In this document: one piece after another, positions 12,467-17,850 of the stretch
How the letters are laid out: each line of letters starts with the position of its first letter
Numbering within the stretch: position 1 is the stretch's first letter
IMG/VR virus record: IMGVR_UViG_650716055_000001
Coordinates: 1-28,125 of that record
Reading direction: 5' to 3' (one strand)
Origin: a virus
Length of the DNA stretch: 28,125 nucleotides
Made by a program: the position numbers and the translations under genes
Notes under the pieces: model-generated
Database searches by the model: none
Told to the model about the DNA's origin: nothing
Seen by the model: only the letters and a program-made list of their open reading frames with translations

Positions 12467-12793
12467 ATGAAGATTAATTATGCACCGCTATATACAACAG
12501 AAGGATTAATCACACTCAAAGGAAATGCAGCACCAGGAGAGGCAATATCTGCTGGAACAGTTATTGGGATTATTTCTGCATCAGGGGAGCTCTCACCGTA
12601 TAACAGCTCGGCTACTGACGGAACAGAAGTAGCAAGAGGTATTGCACTGTGTGATATTGATGCAGCAGATGAAGATAGAGACATAATATATGCGATAGCA
12701 GGAGCTGTTATTGAAAGCAAATGTATAGGCTTAGATGCAACCGCAAAAGAGGATTTATCAACGATATACTTTGTTAAAGATTCACAATTATAG
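12467..12793 (+). CDS. Head decoration protein (lambda gpD-like)
   Basis: AGTVIG...GELSPYNSSATDGTEVARGI matches the HDPD pattern; lies between protease and MCP. Confidence 0.85.
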   Translation: MKINYAPLYTTEGLITLKGNAAPGEAISAGTVIGIISASGELSPYNSSATDGTEVARGIALCDIDAADEDRDIIYAIAGAVIESKCIGLDATAKEDLSTIYFVKDSQL

Positions 12794-12802
12794 GTGGTAT
12801 AA

Positions 12803-13753
12803 ATGTCAGGAATTGATTGGAATAACCCAGCACTAAATTCATTAGCAATTAAGGGGATGATTAAGGAGTATGAAACCAACACCACGGAGCTCCCATATAG
12901 AAAAGTGATGCCAGTTGCTAATGTAAAATCAAAAACATTTTCAGAAATTGTTGATAAAAGCACAATCTTTGCAACTCCATCAACAGCAGCAGGAGCATCA
13001 ATTCAAACAGTAGATTTGGAAAAAGGATTAAAATCATACACTTGCGGTCTTCATGCACTAACCTTACCTTTGTTGGGTGAAGATAGGGGGCTCGCTCCTG
13101 TGGATTTAGTTCAGGATGCTGTTTTTAAGGAATTGGATGCGGCAAGATATGCTATTGAGGCGGAATTTGAAAACCAATTGGTGTCGAATATTCCAACCTC
13201 CAACAAGGTAGATGCCTCATCAGCAAAATGGACAGATGATACAAAAGACCCCATAAAGGTAATAAATAATGCAATCAAAGCAGTTAAAAAAGCATCTGGA
13301 TTAATTCCAAACGCCCTCATCGCTAAGGCGGATGTGATTGATGCACTGACAAGTAATGCAAACACAAGAGATTATATTAAATATATCCAGCCCAACGCAG
13401 TAGATGGAAATGGAACGCTGATAAAACTAAGAGGATTAACTATTATTGAAGCTCCCGAATCAATTAAAAGCGTAAATAATAAAGAGCTGTCTAAGTTTTC
13501 AAGCACATCAGTATACTTAACAGTTGCATCTAATGTAATATCAAGAGGAACAGGATATATCGCAACATATCCAACAAGGAAAGAAGTTCAGCAGGGAAAG
13601 ATATTGCAAAAGGCAAATAAGGATACCCCGCTTATTTTCAAATACATTGATGAGATGAAGGCAACGGGTGTAATTAATATGGTTTCAGAGCTCTCATTTA
13701 TTCCAGTTATCCAAAGACCAAATGCTACTGCCGAAATAAAATCAGTAATTTAA
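12803..13753 (+). CDS. Major capsid protein (HK97 fold, lambda gpE-like)
   Basis: KWTDDTKDPIKVI (WxxxxxDP) motif; size 316 aa; gene order. Confidence 0.88.
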   Translation: MSGIDWNNPALNSLAIKGMIKEYETNTTELPYRKVMPVANVKSKTFSEIVDKSTIFATPSTAAGASIQTVDLEKGLKSYTCGLHALTLPLLGEDRGLAPVDLVQDAVFKELDAARYAIEAEFENQLVSNIPTSNKVDASSAKWTDDTKDPIKVINNAIKAVKKASGLIPNALIAKADVIDALTSNANTRDYIKYIQPNAVDGNGTLIKLRGLTIIEAPESIKSVNNKELSKFSSTSVYLTVASNVISRGTGYIATYPTRKEVQQGKILQKANKDTPLIFKYIDEMKATGVINMVSELSFIPVIQRPNATAEIKSVI

Positions 13754-13763
13754 AGGTGTTATT

Positions 13764-14165
13764 ATGGGATATTGCACACCCGCAGAGCTCTACAACTTTC
13801 TAAAACTTAAAATTCAATATAAAGACATTGAAAACGACCTTAATTCTGCAATAACCGTGGCATCATCAAGGATTGATGCACAGGTAGGACTTATTGAGAA
13901 TCCTGATGAAGATACAAAGATACTATTAAAACGGGCATGTATGTATTATGCAGGAGCTGAAATATTAAGGCAATATTGGGAAGAATTACAGGTCGATAGA
14001 TACGAAATGCAAAAGGTTTCACAATATGAAGGAATGGGGGACGAGCTGACAAGAAACATATTAAATAAGTTAAAAGGAGTTCAGCAGATTACCACATCTA
14101 ACGATAATAACAAAGATACAAAAATAATTATTCCTTCATTTTTATATACGATTACAAATAGGTGA
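13764..14165 (+). CDS. Head-tail adaptor (Mu gp36/HK97 gp6-like)
   Basis: N-terminal YCTPAEL, helical bundle with ASSRIDA...LKRAC; directly after MCP. Confidence 0.7.
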   Translation: MGYCTPAELYNFLKLKIQYKDIENDLNSAITVASSRIDAQVGLIENPDEDTKILLKRACMYYAGAEILRQYWEELQVDRYEMQKVSQYEGMGDELTRNILNKLKGVQQITTSNDNNKDTKIIIPSFLYTITNR

Positions 14166-14170
14166 TTATA

Positions 14171-14956
14171 ATGGGTTCTACATCATATATTAATGGAGAT
14201 GGATATGCGAGATACACAGGGGGCGGGACGTTATTTATTAATGGAGAAAGCATAGCAATTGTAGAGTTTGAAGCAGAATTGAATCATAAAGAAATGCAGA
14301 CAGCCACTACTGCGGGGATTATAAAAGATGTTTCACAGCAGATAGATTTTAAAGGTAAATTCACCGATATAGCAGGAACACATAAGTTTTGGAGCATGTT
14401 TATGGGAATTGATGCTATGGAATCAACTGCTGAATCGTTATATTCTGGTGCTGGAACTGGTGCAGACCAAACGGCAACAGCTGATGCACAGCCAACGCTC
14501 CCATCTATTTTACAGATATCACTCTCTAAAAGTGGAACTACTGTTCCAACAATTACTCCCGATGCGATTGTAATTGCTGGAAAGGATGCATTTGGTAATA
14601 CAATTACTGAGAATTTCAATTATACTTGCCTTGAAACTATTGTTGGAAGTTTGTTATTTTCACAGATTGATAGTATTGCAATCCCTGGCACACTGAGCTC
14701 AGATACAAAAGTTACTGTTTCAACAGTTGCAGGTGTAAAAAGTGGAAAACCAACAATTGTTCCAAAATTCAACCTTCAAGGGTTTATAAAAGGGAGTGAT
14801 GGACACCTGCAAGGCGTACAAATGAAAAATGTAACAATACTTAATAAACCAAAATTTAAACTTGAAGGCAAGGAAGAACATATTAAAGAAGAAATTGAGT
14901 TTGTTTTATCAAATGCTAACGAAGACATAATATTCTATGAATATATACCTCAGTAG
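14171..14956 (+). CDS. Major tail tube protein with an inserted beta/Ig-like region
   Basis: Beta-rich, T/S/G-rich; precedes the chaperone and tape measure genes; GGTGA SD favours ATG 14171. Confidence 0.7.
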   Translation: MGSTSYINGDGYARYTGGGTLFINGESIAIVEFEAELNHKEMQTATTAGIIKDVSQQIDFKGKFTDIAGTHKFWSMFMGIDAMESTAESLYSGAGTGADQTATADAQPTLPSILQISLSKSGTTVPTITPDAIVIAGKDAFGNTITENFNYTCLETIVGSLLFSQIDSIAIPGTLSSDTKVTVSTVAGVKSGKPTIVPKFNLQGFIKGSDGHLQGVQMKNVTILNKPKFKLEGKEEHIKEEIEFVLSNANEDIIFYEYIPQ

Positions 14957-14964
14957 GTGGTTAA

Positions 14965-15339
14965 ATGGTAACTGTTGAAGAATACTTAAAAAAAGCATAT
15001 ACTACCGTAGAGCTCCCCAGTGGATTCAAATTCAAGATAAAAACATTATCCTCAATAGATGTTTTAAAAGTGATGGGAGATATTCCCTCAATACAGGAGA
15101 TGACAAACCTAAACAAAGAAGAAGTAAAGGAGAATGTGCAAAAGTTATCAGCGAATAAAGAATACACTAAGAAAATAATTGAAGTAGTTCCTGAATTGGT
15201 TGAAAAATCAATTATCGAACCAAAAGGCATAAAATGGGAGCAGTTAGACGGTAAGGATAAAGATGCATTAATGGAGTATATATTATCACAATTTACAGCA
15301 GATAAAAAAATATCATCCTTTCGTGAGAAAGAACAGTAA
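14965..15339 (+). CDS. Tail assembly chaperone (gpG-like)
   Basis: Lies between tail tube and TMP; VELPSGFKFKIKTLS pattern. Confidence 0.75.
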   Translation: MVTVEEYLKKAYTTVELPSGFKFKIKTLSSIDVLKVMGDIPSIQEMTNLNKEEVKENVQKLSANKEYTKKIIEVVPELVEKSIIEPKGIKWEQLDGKDKDALMEYILSQFTADKKISSFREKEQ

Positions 15340-15547
15340 ATTATTAGATGCTGTTGCTCAAAGATACGGCTGTCTCCCTTCTGACATTTTAAATCTTTCA
15401 GTTGTAGAATTTAACATAAATATTGCAGTTGCGGTTAATTCAGCAGATACAGAATCAGAGAAAAAAGGCTGTAAGGTAAAGGTTGTTGATAAAACAGAAT
15501 TAAACAATAAATATAAAGAATTATTGAGGAGGTATAATGCCCGTTGA
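15323..15547 (+). CDS. gpT-like extension, probably made as a +1 frameshift fusion to the chaperone (14965-15547)
   Basis: Overlaps the chaperone in the +1 frame; no SD before GTG 15323; TCC_TTT_CGT at 15316-15324; AQRYGCLPSDIL motif. Confidence 0.7.
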   Translation: MRKNSKLLDAVAQRYGCLPSDILNLSVVEFNINIAVAVNSADTESEKKGCKVKVVDKTELNNKYKELLRRYNAR

Positions 15548-15662
15548 TATAAAAAGATGGAAAAAAAACACTATTCTAATTTTTGGAGTGCTTATGTTAA
15601 TATTCTTTATTTTAGTTTTTATAATCTTTGTAATCAGTGAAATATACGCACTAACAGGCTGA
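15537..15662 (+). CDS. ~41-aa single-pass membrane microprotein (below ORF-track cutoff)
   Basis: Strong GAGGAGGT SD; MPVDIKRWKKN followed by a long hydrophobic stretch; stop 4 nt before the TMP start. Confidence 0.5.
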   Translation: MPVDIKRWKKNTILIFGVLMLIFFILVFIIFVISEIYALTG

Positions 15663-15666
15663 TAAT

Positions 15667-17850
15667 ATGGTAAATATGGAAATAATTATTTCAGCAGTCG
15701 ATAAGGCATCAGCTGTATTGGAAAAGGTTCAAAGGAAGATGGATGTAATTAAAAACAAAACAGCAAGAATAGCAGAAACATTTAACAGAGTAGGTAAAGG
15801 TTTAGCTGTTGCTGGTGCTGGAATGACTGCATTTGCCACTCCTTTTGTTGCAGGAATGGCATCAGCAATAAATAAAGGAATAGAATTTGAACAGCAAATG
15901 AAAACAGTTCAGGCAGTTATGGGGGCATCACAGCAAGACTTTACAAAACTATCACAACTTGCGATGCATTATGGTGCAACAACAGCCTATACTGCATCAG
16001 AAGTAGCAGAAGCCATGAGGAATATGGCAGCAGCAGGAATGAAAACAAAACAGATATACGCATCGCTCGGTAGTGTTTTAACTCTTGCAACGGCAACACA
16101 GTCTGATTTAAACCTATCATCTGAAATTATTATTTCAACACTTGCACAGTTCAATATGAAGGCATCTCAAAGTGCGAGGATAATTGATGTATTTTCACAG
16201 GCTGTTGCTAATTCCCCTGCAAGACTTGGTGATTTACAATATTCTTTAAAATATGTCGGAGCTCTGGCTAATTCAATGGGATATTCATTAGAGCAAACAA
16301 CTGCTGCATTAATGATGCTATATAAAGCTGGAAAAAAAGGAGAAGAAGCAGGGACTGCATTAAGGGAAGTATTGTCACGCTTAGTTAATACGGGGGTGCA
16401 AAATAAATTAAAAGCATTAGGTATTAATGTCCTCGATTCAAATGGAAAATTAAAAGGCATGGGGACTATATTAGATGAAATAAAAAAGAAAGGACTATCT
16501 TCGGCACAAATATTATCGATATTTGGAACGGAAGCAGGGACTGCAATAAATATTATGCTAACACAGGGGGGAGATGCCTATAAAAAATATGTAAAAGTAT
16601 TGGATGATTCAAAAGGAAAAGCAGAAAAGACAGCAGATGAAATGAAAAACACAGTTCAATATAAAATACAGGCATTAAAATCAGCAATTGAAGGGATAAA
16701 ACTATCTATTTTTAAGGACAATAAAGGACAGATTAAAAAGTTTTTAGATGAGCTCATTAAAGCCATGCCTGCTATAAAAAAGTTTGTTGTCTCTATTTCA
16801 AAAGGGATGGCTACCGTTGGGAAAGTGATAGTTAAAGCCATTCTTCCATTGTTAAAAATATTTAACAATCTTCCTGCACCAGTTAAAAAAGCCATTGGAA
16901 TTTTTGTTGGATTGGTAGCTGCAATAGCTGCAATAGTTGGCCCTATTCTGTTGGTGGTTGGCGGGTTTGCAATGGCTATCTCTTCAATCAGTGAAGTAGT
17001 TGGTGCAATAGGTGGATTAAGTGCAGCAATTGGTGCAGTTTCAGGGGTAATATCATCGGTAATTACCGTAATAGGGGGCATTGTGTTAGCAATAAATCCT
17101 GTTATTCTGATAATCCTTGCAGTTGCTGTTGCAGTGGCAGCTTTATATTTAGCGTGGAAAAATAACTGGTTTGGGATTAGGGATACAATAAATGCAGTTG
17201 TTAAAAAAATAAAGGGGATATTAAGTAAATTAGCAGGAGCTTTAAAATGGGTAATTACTGAGATTAAAAAGCATACAAAGGATATTAAAAAAGCATTATT
17301 TACCGCATTGCTCGGACCATTTGCACCACTCAAAACAGCATGGGATAACAATCTCTTTGGAATTAGAGATAAGTTAAAAAAAGTATTTAATGAGATGATT
17401 AGTTACTTAAAATCATTACCTCGTAGATTTTATCAGGCTGGTGTAGGGATGATTAATTCACTTAAAAATGGAATTGAAAGCAAAATAAATGAAATTAAGC
17501 AAAAAATATTGGATTTACTTCATTGGATTGATAACCACCTACCCCACAGCCCTGCAAAAGAGGGACCGTTAAGCAGATTGGATAAAGTAGGTCCTGGTTT
17601 TATAGATACAATTGCAGAAGGGATAAATAAACATAAATCTAAAATCCAAAATGTAGTTGGGGGCATAACTACCACTATGGCAATTAATACACGATTAGGC
17701 AGAGCTCCTACAACGAGCAATGTACTCAACTATGGTGGAGACACGCAAACCAACTATAATGTGGCAATTAATGTTGTTGGTAAATCTTATGATGAGCAAC
17801 AATTAGCTAATCATTTGAATAAATTATTAAAAAAACAAATTTATAGGTGA
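15667..17850 (+). CDS. Tail tape measure protein (TP901/PhageMin_Tail-like)
   Basis: FEQQMKTVQAV...YTASEVAEAM...GEEAGTALR motifs; A/G-rich hydrophobic middle; W-spaced repeats; PHSPAKEGPL near the C-terminus. Confidence 0.95.
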   Translation: MVNMEIIISAVDKASAVLEKVQRKMDVIKNKTARIAETFNRVGKGLAVAGAGMTAFATPFVAGMASAINKGIEFEQQMKTVQAVMGASQQDFTKLSQLAMHYGATTAYTASEVAEAMRNMAAAGMKTKQIYASLGSVLTLATATQSDLNLSSEIIISTLAQFNMKASQSARIIDVFSQAVANSPARLGDLQYSLKYVGALANSMGYSLEQTTAALMMLYKAGKKGEEAGTALREVLSRLVNTGVQNKLKALGINVLDSNGKLKGMGTILDEIKKKGLSSAQILSIFGTEAGTAINIMLTQGGDAYKKYVKVLDDSKGKAEKTADEMKNTVQYKIQALKSAIEGIKLSIFKDNKGQIKKFLDELIKAMPAIKKFVVSISKGMATVGKVIVKAILPLLKIFNNLPAPVKKAIGIFVGLVAAIAAIVGPILLVVGGFAMAISSISEVVGAIGGLSAAIGAVSGVISSVITVIGGIVLAINPVILIILAVAVAVAALYLAWKNNWFGIRDTINAVVKKIKGILSKLAGALKWVITEIKKHTKDIKKALFTALLGPFAPLKTAWDNNLFGIRDKLKKVFNEMISYLKSLPRRFYQAGVGMINSLKNGIESKINEIKQKILDLLHWIDNHLPHSPAKEGPLSRLDKVGPGFIDTIAEGINKHKSKIQNVVGGITTTMAINTRLGRAPTTSNVLNYGGDTQTNYNVAINVVGKSYDEQQLANHLNKLLKKQIYR

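What the first reader, a model, noticed from the sequence alone, without database searches (positions are those of the whole stretch)
15304..15547. Tail chaperone G/GT overlap carries UCC_UUU_CGU, the influenza PA-X +1 frameshift motif
Seen: in-frame TCC TTT CGT at 15316-15324, just before the chaperone stop. A +1 slip (UUU to UUC) enters the 15323-15547 ORF, which has no SD although most neighbours do. The -1 frame hits TGA at once. Established: tail chaperones typically use a programmed frameshift, mostly -1; UCC_UUU_CGU is the +1 site of influenza PA-X; CGU is a rare Arg codon in Methanococcales. Inference: the same hungry-codon +1 mechanism may work on archaeal ribosomes.
Basis: partly seen in the sequence, partly recalled or inferred. 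Interest (0 to 1): 0.72.

Follow-up and report, generated by a model that had tools for sequence, protein, structure and literature searches.

The report
Plus-one frameshift in archaeal tail chaperone
A tailed provirus in a Methanococcales archaeon very probably makes the long form of its tail-assembly chaperone when a few ribosomes slip one base forward at UCC_UUU_CGU, a signal proven for influenza PA-X and already predicted for haloarchaeal viruses, so this is a well-supported new example and not a new kind of mechanism.

Summary
Observation confirmed. TCC TTT CGT lies in frame at 15316-15324, five codons before the stop of a 124-aa ORF (14965-15339). That ORF sits between a tail-tube gene and the tape-measure gene. 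A 74-codon continuation (15323-15547) is in the +1 frame, the -1 frame closes at once, and the continuation has no Shine-Dalgarno.

Interpretation supported.
- All 15 distinct related loci keep in-frame TTT_CGT with T in +1. Hosts include Methanothermococcus and Methanocaldococcus.
- It is the longest invariant nucleotide block in G-T.
- In some loci a +1-frame stop three codons upstream narrows the shift window to about six codons.
- The A7 run is not conserved.
- One relative has GTA instead of GTG, so it has no usable start, yet the T N-terminus stays conserved.
- CGU is the third rarest codon in this genome.
- The predicted fusion aligns colinearly with natural single-ORF G-T proteins.
- In 69 IMG/VR loci with this T domain, -1 loci carry classic heptamers. 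+1 loci carry TTT_CGN or TTT_CCT at the homologous Phe.

It is not new in kind. TTT-CGC was proposed for HF1-group haloviruses in 2020 (PMC7230728), and this scan noted the motif in other archaeal genomes. Nothing has been shown experimentally. Confidence about 0.8, interest moderate.

The parts
14171..14956 (+). Tail tube protein (the ORF is listed from GTG 14162; ATG 14171 follows an AGGTGA Shine-Dalgarno)
   Evidence: AlphaFold model from a 9-sequence alignment, pLDDT 74.8. The top Foldseek PDB hits are siphophage tail tube proteins (phage Chi 8vhx_G, Mystique 9n71, YSD1 6xgr), E 1.5e-4 to 5e-3, but TM-scores are low at 0.2-0.3. No Pfam or PHROG hit.
14965..15339 (+). G: short tail assembly chaperone, 124 aa, with its own Shine-Dalgarno (AGGTGG, -10.7 kcal/mol)
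   Evidence: It lies between the tube and tape-measure genes. Weak sub-threshold hits to DUF7391 (E 1e-4) and to phrog_4336 tail assembly chaperone (E 0.028). Model pLDDT is 66.5 with a disordered C-terminal tail at 112-124. Foldseek BFVD hits are mycobacteriophage tail assembly chaperones, E 1.8e-3 to 9e-3, prob 0.96 or more.
15316..15324 (+). Proposed +1 shift site UCC_UUU_CGU. The slip is on UUU_C (15319-15322), and C15322 is skipped
   Evidence: TTT CGT is invariant in 15 distinct related loci. It is the longest invariant nucleotide run in the 654-column G-T alignment of 13 sequences. F-TTT and R-CGT are two of only 3 invariant codons among 27 invariant degenerate residues of G. The single tRNA-Phe(GAA) and tRNA-Arg(GCG) are shown.
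15323..15547 (+). T: +1-frame continuation, 74 codons plus stop. It would be translated as the C-terminal domain of a 193-aa G-T fusion with junction ...ISSF|VRKNS...
   Evidence: No Shine-Dalgarno. The T domain is conserved (A2) and has 57 relatives in a profile search of 1.84 billion proteins. The fusion P0005 aligns across the junction with single-ORF proteins P0055 (E 7e-23) and P0068 (E 4e-11).
15537..15662 (+). Conserved 41-aa single-pass membrane micro-ORF between T and the tape measure. It is a neighbour and not part of the recoding signal
   Evidence: Strong Shine-Dalgarno GAGGAGGT (-11.5 kcal/mol). Homologous 41-42 aa ORFs (MPVD..RWK..TILIFG) occur in L004, L018, L019 and L021.
15667..17850 (+). 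Tail tape measure protein, 727 aa
   Evidence: PF10145 PhageMin_Tail E 5e-44. phrog_1533 tail length tape measure protein E 3e-107.

Best explanation
The two ORFs are the G and T parts of a lambda-type tail assembly chaperone of a siphovirus-like provirus. Most ribosomes translate G (124 aa) and stop at TAA 15337-15339. A minority pause with peptidyl-tRNA-Phe(GAA) on UUU (15319-15321) in the P site, while the A site waits for the rare, wobble-read codon CGU. The tRNA-Phe then re-pairs one base forward on UUC, a full Watson-Crick match. C15322 is skipped and decoding resumes at GUG 15323. The result is a 193-aa G-T fusion (...ISSF-VRKNS...). By analogy with lambda gpG/gpGT, G and the G part of G-T coat the tape measure, and the T domain recruits the tail tube protein. 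Shown here: the anatomy, the conservation, the codon and tRNA context, the lack of start signals, and the existence of fused homologues. Inferred: the slip itself, its efficiency, the pausing role of CGU and the binding partners.
For: (1) Synteny. The gene order is head decoration, major capsid, tube, G, T, tape measure, and G has a chaperone-like fold.
(2) All 15 distinct related G-T loci keep in-frame TTT CGT 3-9 codons before the G stop, with T in +1. They come from at least two named genera (Methanothermococcus, Methanocaldococcus), a third genus of the family, and vent metagenomes. G amino-acid identity to the window falls to 42%, and to about 30% over the G fragment held for L030.
(3) TTTCGT is the longest invariant run in G-T. 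Every other invariant 4- or 6-fold residue of G uses 2-5 different codons.
(4) In 8 distinct loci a +1-frame stop lies 3 codons before the Val codon. In others G stops 2 codons after CGT. So the shift must occur within about 6 codons around the motif.
(5) The GTG has no Shine-Dalgarno in 11 of 13 loci. In L024 it is GTA, and there is no ATG/GTG/TTG until 10 codons later. Yet N4, S5 and D9 of T are kept there with synonymous changes.
(6) CGT is 0.66 per 1000 codons. There is one tRNA-Arg(GCG) and one tRNA-Phe(GAA).
(7) No conserved RNA structure, as at PA-X (PMC5009743).
(8) The fusion is colinear with natural single-ORF G-T proteins.
(9) Family-wide control. Of 69 IMG/VR loci with this T domain, 33 of 35 -1 loci carry a classic in-phase heptamer. 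28 of 32 +1 loci carry TTT_CGN (17) or TTT_CCT (11) at the homologous Phe, 9-14 codons before the conserved Asp.
(10) UUU_CGU is an experimentally proven +1 site (PMC3498833).
Against: There is no protein or ribosome data for any archaeon.
- GTG is present in 14 of 15 loci and could be a start used by termination-reinitiation.
- TTT is 83% of Phe codons here, so its invariance alone is weak.
- Given conserved residues in both frames, dual coding could fix TTTCGT without any slip.
- Two distant relatives have an ATG-led T directly at the G stop (L027, L033), so T may sometimes be made on its own.
- In-frame TTT_CGT is not avoided in host genes (7 against 9.2 expected), so the site must be of low efficiency.
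- Both natural fused forms carry A10/A11 runs at the linker and could be assembly artefacts.
- The chaperone fold match is only moderate (pLDDT 66.5; best E 6e-4).
Confidence: 0.8

Rival explanations
1. There is no frameshift. T is a separate 74-aa protein started at GTG 15323, for example by ribosomes that terminate at the G stop 14 nt downstream and re-initiate backwards (termination-reinitiation coupling).
For: GTG is conserved in 14 of 15 loci. The G stop is only 8-26 nt downstream. Distant relatives L027 and L033 have an ATG abutting or overlapping the G stop. L030 also has an ATG 5 nt before its G stop.
Against: There is no Shine-Dalgarno (-1.7 kcal/mol against -6 to -13 for neighbours). 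L024 has GTA and no start codon before the conserved T N-terminus. This model does not need C15322 or the third base of TTT, yet both are invariant. Homologues exist as single G-T ORFs. The -1 members of the same T family carry classic slippery heptamers, which shows that this domain is normally reached by recoding.
Confidence: 0.1
2. The split is produced at the A7 run 15304-15310. Either it is a homopolymer sequencing error (true A6 giving one ORF), or RNA polymerase slippage deletes one A.
For: In this window the +1 frame is open from 15275, so an A6 would fuse the frames. Two distant fused homologues have A10/A11 runs at the same Lys-rich linker.
Against: The A run is absent in relatives (AAT AAG AAT, AAT GAA AAT and others). 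In 8 distinct loci a +1-frame stop lies between that position and the motif. The G-stop and T arrangement recurs in 15 independent assemblies. A7 or longer runs are commonplace here: 1811 in 930 of 1423 long ORFs.
Confidence: 0.03
3. A +1 shift does occur in the same nonamer but by another route: slippage of the preceding tRNA on UCC_U (CCC_U in one relative), or out-of-frame binding of Val-tRNA without P-site slippage.
For: The protein product is identical (PMC3498833 lists these models for PA-X). The preceding codon is NCC in 12 of 15 close relatives and in most +1 loci of the survey.
Against: AAC and AAA replace NCC in three relatives while TTT_C never varies. UCC to CCU re-pairing has a first-position mismatch, whereas UUU to UUC improves pairing with anticodon GAA (PMC3498833).
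Confidence: 0.05

Closest known systems
Tail assembly chaperone pair of HF1-group haloarchaeal myoviruses (HF2 HrrHF2_550/545; Dyall-Smith et al. 2020, PMC7230728; also HSTV-2, cited in PMC5009743 and PMC8211752)
   Same: An archaeal tailed virus with two chaperone CDS before the tape measure, the second in +1. TTT_CGN lies a few codons before the first stop and no classic slippery heptamer is present. I checked this in HF2: AAG TTT CGC AGA TAG. The authors linked it explicitly to the TTT-CGn motif of eukaryotic viruses. It is a prediction only.
   Different: That is a myovirus of halophiles with a GC-rich genome and CGC, not CGT. Its chaperone has no detectable sequence similarity to this G (hhalign probability 0.2%). 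Here the full UCC_UUU_CGU nonamer is present, the host is AT-rich and CGU is the third rarest codon.
Influenza A virus PA-X +1 frameshift site UCC_UUU_CGU, and the UUU_CGN class (amalgaviruses, chronic bee paralysis virus, fijiviruses; PMC3498833, PMC5052127)
   Same: An identical nonamer. P-site tRNA-Phe(GAA) can re-pair UUU to UUC. The A-site Arg codon is rare. No 3' stimulatory structure. Low efficiency is expected.
   Different: Those are RNA viruses translated on eukaryotic ribosomes, and the site was proven by mass spectrometry. This is a dsDNA provirus on archaeal ribosomes and is unproven. The products are unrelated.
Bacteriophage lambda gpG/gpGT (Xu, Hendrix and Duda 2004, as summarised in PMC5009743)
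   Same: Same gene position, sizes and logic: an abundant short chaperone and a rare C-terminally extended one made by recoding near the end of G. -1 members of the same T-domain family use lambda's own heptamer G_GGA_AAG.
   Different: Lambda slips -1 on a tandem-slippery heptamer. Here the -1 frame is closed and the shift is +1 on a single P-site codon.
Other non -1 phage tail recoding: Mu gpGT (-2), and Listeria phage and SPP1 tail proteins (+1), as cited in PMC3498833
   Same: They show that tail genes of tailed viruses reach the other frame by routes other than -1.
   Different: The hosts are bacterial and the shift sites differ. I did not examine them here.

Membership tests
Lambda-type G/GT tail assembly chaperone pair | Two small ORFs directly between the major tail (tube) gene and the tape-measure gene | tested here: met
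   Tube 14171-14956, G 14965-15339, T to 15547, tape measure 15667-17850. A 41-aa membrane ORF also lies between T and the tape measure.
Lambda-type G/GT tail assembly chaperone pair | The second ORF overlaps the end of the first in another frame and lacks its own initiation signals | tested here: met
   17-nt overlap from GTG. No Shine-Dalgarno (-1.7 kcal/mol). The same holds in 11 of 13 relatives, and L024 has no start codon.
Lambda-type G/GT tail assembly chaperone pair | An in-phase -1 slippery heptamer X_XXY_YYZ in the overlap | tested here: not met
   The -1 frame reads TGA at 15324-15326 and T is in +1. This variant feature was already known to vary in the family.
Lambda-type G/GT tail assembly chaperone pair | G has the tail-assembly-chaperone fold or homology | tested here: inconclusive
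   Foldseek BFVD: several mycobacteriophage tail assembly chaperones, E 1.8e-3 to 9e-3, prob 0.96-1.0. HK97 chaperone 2ob9 ranks second in PDB but with E 0.48. Model pLDDT is only 66.5. Pfam and PHROG hits are sub-threshold.
Lambda-type G/GT tail assembly chaperone pair | A G-T fusion protein is made at a few per cent of G; G binds the tape measure and T binds the tube protein | not testable with these tools
PA-X-type UUU_CGN +1 ribosomal frameshift site | In-frame UUU_CGN at the 5' end of a conserved +1 ORF | tested here: met
   15319-15324. The +1 ORF has 74 codons and a conserved protein sequence.
PA-X-type UUU_CGN +1 ribosomal frameshift site | The motif is conserved at synonymous positions across relatives | tested here: met
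   15 of 15 distinct loci. It is the longest invariant nucleotide run, and only 3 of 27 invariant degenerate residues keep one codon. Caveat: dual coding also constrains these bases.
PA-X-type UUU_CGN +1 ribosomal frameshift site | A single tRNA-Phe with anticodon GAA (better pairing on UUC) and a seldom-used A-site codon | tested here: met
   One tRNA-Phe(GAA) and one tRNA-Arg(GCG). CGT is 2.0% of Arg codons and the third rarest codon. This was tested for this genome only.
PA-X-type UUU_CGN +1 ribosomal frameshift site | The trans-frame peptide is detected and the shift is lost on UUU_CGU to UUC_AGA | not testable with these tools
   Requires mass spectrometry or reporter assays.
HF1-group haloarchaeal chaperone pair (TTT-CGC) | Sequence homology of the chaperone proteins | tested here: not met
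   hhalign of the G alignment against HF2 HrrHF2_550: probability 0.2%. No tblastn hit of the G-T fusion in 50,697 phage records. It works like them but is not a member of their protein family.

The most novel reading that the evidence does not exclude
UUU_C followed by CGN (or CCU) is a general but unrecognised +1 slip signal of prokaryotic-virus tail chaperones. It would be the forward counterpart of the X_XXY_YYZ heptamer. Evolution swaps the two freely at one homologous Phe codon of a widespread T-domain family, in genomes from 30% to 62% GC. It would then work on archaeal (and possibly bacterial) ribosomes as it does on eukaryotic ones. The residue after that Phe is F/W in the few fused and ATG-led forms examined, but V/E/A/L in +1 forms. 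That pattern suggests selection for CGN/CCU in the A site.
Probability: 0.5. Interest if true: 0.75.

Novelty: new member of a known kind. Interest (0 to 1): 0.55.

Why it matters
Only one programmed frameshift (-1, fucA1 of Saccharolobus) has been demonstrated in Archaea, and +1 frameshifting has only been predicted (PMC8211752). This locus gives a very clean +1 candidate. The site is six codons wide and phylogenetically invariant, there is no competing start, and the host lineage (Methanococcales) has genetically tractable members. A reporter or mass-spectrometry test is therefore straightforward. It also extends the influenza/amalgavirus UUU_CGN signal from haloarchaeal myoviruses to methanogen siphovirus-like proviruses whose chaperone protein is unrelated in sequence. 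That points to a property of the decoding machinery and not of one virus lineage. Practically, gene callers split or truncate T in every relative seen: they call it from GTG, from an upstream ATG, or from an internal Met. Annotation pipelines could use TTT_C(G/C)N as a +1 rule for tail chaperones.

Tried and rejected
- A -1 frameshift is rejected. The -1 frame stops at 15324-15326 and is 6-21 codons long in all relatives.
- The A7 run as error or slippage site is rejected. It is not conserved, it is separated from T by +1-frame stops in relatives, and A7 runs are ubiquitous.
- A -2 slip is rejected. tRNA-Phe cannot re-pair on CCU.
- No downstream stimulatory RNA structure was found. RNAalifold predicts no pairs in 11 sequences, and the single-sequence z-score is -0.96.
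- No Rfam family matches the window.
- No upstream SD-like stimulator is conserved, by inspection.
- Other in-frame TTT_CGN sites in the genome: none is followed by a +1 ORF longer than 26 codons, except this one.
- No relative exists among 50,697 deposited phage genomes, so no annotated ribosomal_slippage feature could be consulted.
- A DUF7391 search of related genomes added nothing, and the 'phylum' scope held only the same 40 genomes.
- PHROG scans of distant G and fused proteins gave nothing.
- The MFTV1 paper and the two 2013 halovirus papers are not held. I rely on reviews for them.
- The hosts of the marine +1 loci could not be determined.

Full report
**What is there**

The window is G000:C1:312238-340362 of a 1.68-Mb, 29% GC Methanococcales genome. 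A relative from the same genus is titled Methanothermococcus sp..

Around the finding lies a tailed-virus structural module:
- head decoration protein, 12467-12793 (PF02924);
- major capsid protein, 12803-13753 (phrog_1005);
- a 261-aa protein, 14171-14956, whose model matches siphophage tail tube proteins;
- the 124-aa ORF 14965-15339;
- the +1-frame ORF ending at 15547;
- a 41-aa membrane ORF;
- a 727-aa tape measure protein (PF10145; phrog_1533 E 3e-107).

The 124-aa protein gives only sub-threshold family hits (DUF7391; phrog_4336 tail assembly chaperone). Its model has pLDDT 66.5 and a disordered C-terminal tail. It finds mycobacteriophage tail assembly chaperones in BFVD (E about 1e-3 to 1e-2). 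The HK97 chaperone is the second PDB hit but is not significant. The G/T assignment rests mainly on position, size and the T-domain family described below.

In frame, G ends TCA TCC TTT CGT GAG AAA GAA CAG TAA, with TCC TTT CGT at 15316-15324. The +1 frame is open from 15275 to 15547 and its first conventional start is GTG 15323. The -1 frame reads TGA at 15324-15326.

Pairing of the upstream 22 nt with the 16S 3' end (GGATCACCTCCT) is -1.7 kcal/mol. For 16 of 21 starts in the module it is -6 to -13.

CGT is 2.0% of Arg codons and the third rarest codon of the genome. The genome has one tRNA-Arg(GCG), which reads CGU by G:U wobble. It has one tRNA-Phe(GAA), which pairs better with UUC than with UUU.

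**Comparative evidence**

Searches of 40 Methanococcales genomes, JGI/ENA metagenomes, IMG/VR and protein collections gave 15 distinct G-T loci. They include Methanocaldococcus vulcanius M7 (Metvu_0573), two genomes of another genus of the same family, a Methanothermococcus single-cell genome and metagenome contigs. G amino-acid identity to the window falls to 42% for L024, and to about 30% over the G fragment held for L030, by my inspection. Pairwise nucleotide identity is 51-97% with a median of 64%.

Every one of these loci has T in the +1 frame and in-frame TTT CGT 3-9 codons before the G stop. The preceding codon varies (TCC, CCC, ACC, AAC, AAA) and so does the following one (GAG, GAA, GCG, AAA).

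TTTCGT is the longest invariant nucleotide run in the whole G-T alignment. G has 27 residues that are invariant and degenerate, and only three keep a single codon: E6, and the Phe and Arg of the motif. All other 4- and 6-fold residues use 2-5 codons.

In eight distinct loci a +1-frame stop lies three codons before the Val codon. In others G stops two codons after CGT. The frame change must therefore happen within about six codons centred on the motif. The A7 run is absent from the relatives.

**Against independent initiation**

The GTG has no Shine-Dalgarno in 11 of 13 loci. In L024 (IMGVR_UViG_2918192969_000001) the codon is GTA, and no ATG/GTG/TTG occurs until ten codons later. Yet the intervening T residues (N4, S5, L8, D9) are conserved through synonymous changes such as CTT versus TTA and GAC versus GAT. 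There the conserved N-terminus of T can only be reached from G.

**The fusion is a real protein species in relatives**

A profile of T found 57 relatives among 1.84 billion representatives. Most are 40-100-aa ORFs, but two are 218 and 190 aa with T at the C-terminus. The +1 fusion predicted for the window (P0005) aligns with them in one colinear segment across the junction (E 7e-23 and 4e-11).

One caveat applies. Both fused genes carry A10 or A11 runs in the Lys-rich linker. They may use, or suffer from, homopolymer slippage.

**A family-wide control**

Using the T profile I fetched 69 IMG/VR loci.
- In 35 loci T is in the -1 frame. Of these, 33 have a classic in-phase heptamer in the overlap (A_AAA_AAA, G_GGA_AAN, T_TTT_TTA, A_AAA_AAG).
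- In 32 loci T is in the +1 frame. Of these, 17 have in-frame TTT_CGN and 11 have TTT_CCT.
- After de-duplication there are 12 TTT_CGN, 6 TTT_CCT and about 3 without either. The TTT always lies 9-14 codons before the conserved Asp of the T domain, which is a homologous position.

So this T domain is normally reached by recoding. Whenever the frame relation is +1, the device is UUU_C with a CGN or CCU A-site codon. These loci span 30-62% GC and several G families. Their hosts are unknown; one family is marine 'Prokaryotic dsDNA virus sp.'.

**Mechanism**

The best-supported model is that proposed for PA-X. Peptidyl-tRNA-Phe re-pairs from UUU to UUC while the A site waits on a slow codon. No 3' structure is involved (PMC3498833, PMC5009743). 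Consistent with this, RNAalifold finds no conserved pairs, and the local fold is unremarkable.

In-frame TTT_CGT is not depleted in host genes (7 observed, 9.2 expected). That fits a low-efficiency site, which suits the roughly 30:1 G:GT ratio known from lambda (PMC5009743).

**What weakens the case**

There are no protein data. GTG is conserved in 14 of 15 loci. Dual coding could contribute to the invariance. Two distant relatives have an ATG-led T at the G stop: L027 (in the same frame after TGA) and L033 (TAATGA overlap). I put the frameshift at about 0.8, independent or re-initiated T at about 0.1, and an A-run artefact or transcriptional slippage at about 0.03.

**Novelty**

Reviews state that only the -1 fucA1 frameshift has been shown in Archaea, and that a +1 G/T shift is predicted for HSTV-2 (PMC5009743, PMC8211752).

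Dyall-Smith et al. 2020 (PMC7230728) described a TTT-CGC motif inside a perfectly conserved 15-bp block at the end of the first chaperone CDS of HF1-group haloviruses, and linked it to the eukaryotic TTT-CGn signal. I confirmed AAG TTT CGC AGA TAG in HF2. Its chaperone shows no sequence similarity to this G.

Earlier notes of this scan report the same motif in other archaeal genomes. The present locus is therefore a new, unusually well-constrained member of a predicted kind. It extends that kind to methanogen siphovirus-like proviruses and shows the exact PA-X nonamer.

Noticed in passing
window 15537-15662: A 41-aa single-pass membrane ORF with a strong Shine-Dalgarno (GAGGAGGT) sits between T and the tape measure. 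Its start overlaps the T stop. Homologous 41-42 aa ORFs (MPVD..RWK..TILIFG) occur in four relatives, and the other loci keep the same ~120-nt gap without an ATG-led ORF. Function unknown.
   Followed up: partly
IMG/VR loci L036-L104 (T-domain relatives): Across 69 viral contigs with this T domain, -1 loci carry classic heptamers and +1 loci carry TTT_CGN or TTT_CCT at one homologous Phe codon. This suggests a general +1 rule for tail chaperones. Hosts are unknown and GC ranges from 0.30 to 0.62.
   Followed up: partly
L027:2490-2510: In a distant relative, G and T are in the same frame and separated only by TGA followed directly by ATG (GTA TGA ATG). This could mean stop-codon readthrough, coupled re-initiation or an alternative genetic code. 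Not resolved.
   Followed up: no
L026:2085-2110 and L031:481-495: The two natural single-ORF G-T homologues carry A10 and A11 runs in the Lys-rich linker (L026 also has a T7 run). These are possible transcriptional-slippage sites or assembly artefacts. The window's A7 run lies at the equivalent linker position.
   Followed up: partly
whole genome G000: In-frame TTT_CGA is about 4-fold depleted (5 observed, 20.5 expected from codon frequencies), while TTT_CGT is not (7 against 9.2). I did not examine whether this reflects dinucleotide bias or selection against slippage.
   Followed up: no
window 14162-14171: The tube-gene ORF is listed from GTG 14162, which overlaps the upstream stop. ATG 14171 is preceded by AGGTGA at proper spacing and aligns with the MG(S/Y)TSY N-termini of relatives, so it is the likelier start.
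   Followed up: partly
L006:1501-1893 versus L005:1501-1875: Two closely related proviruses (same genus as each other) differ in G by a six-residue KD-repeat expansion (KDKDKD) in the acidic/basic middle loop.
   Followed up: no
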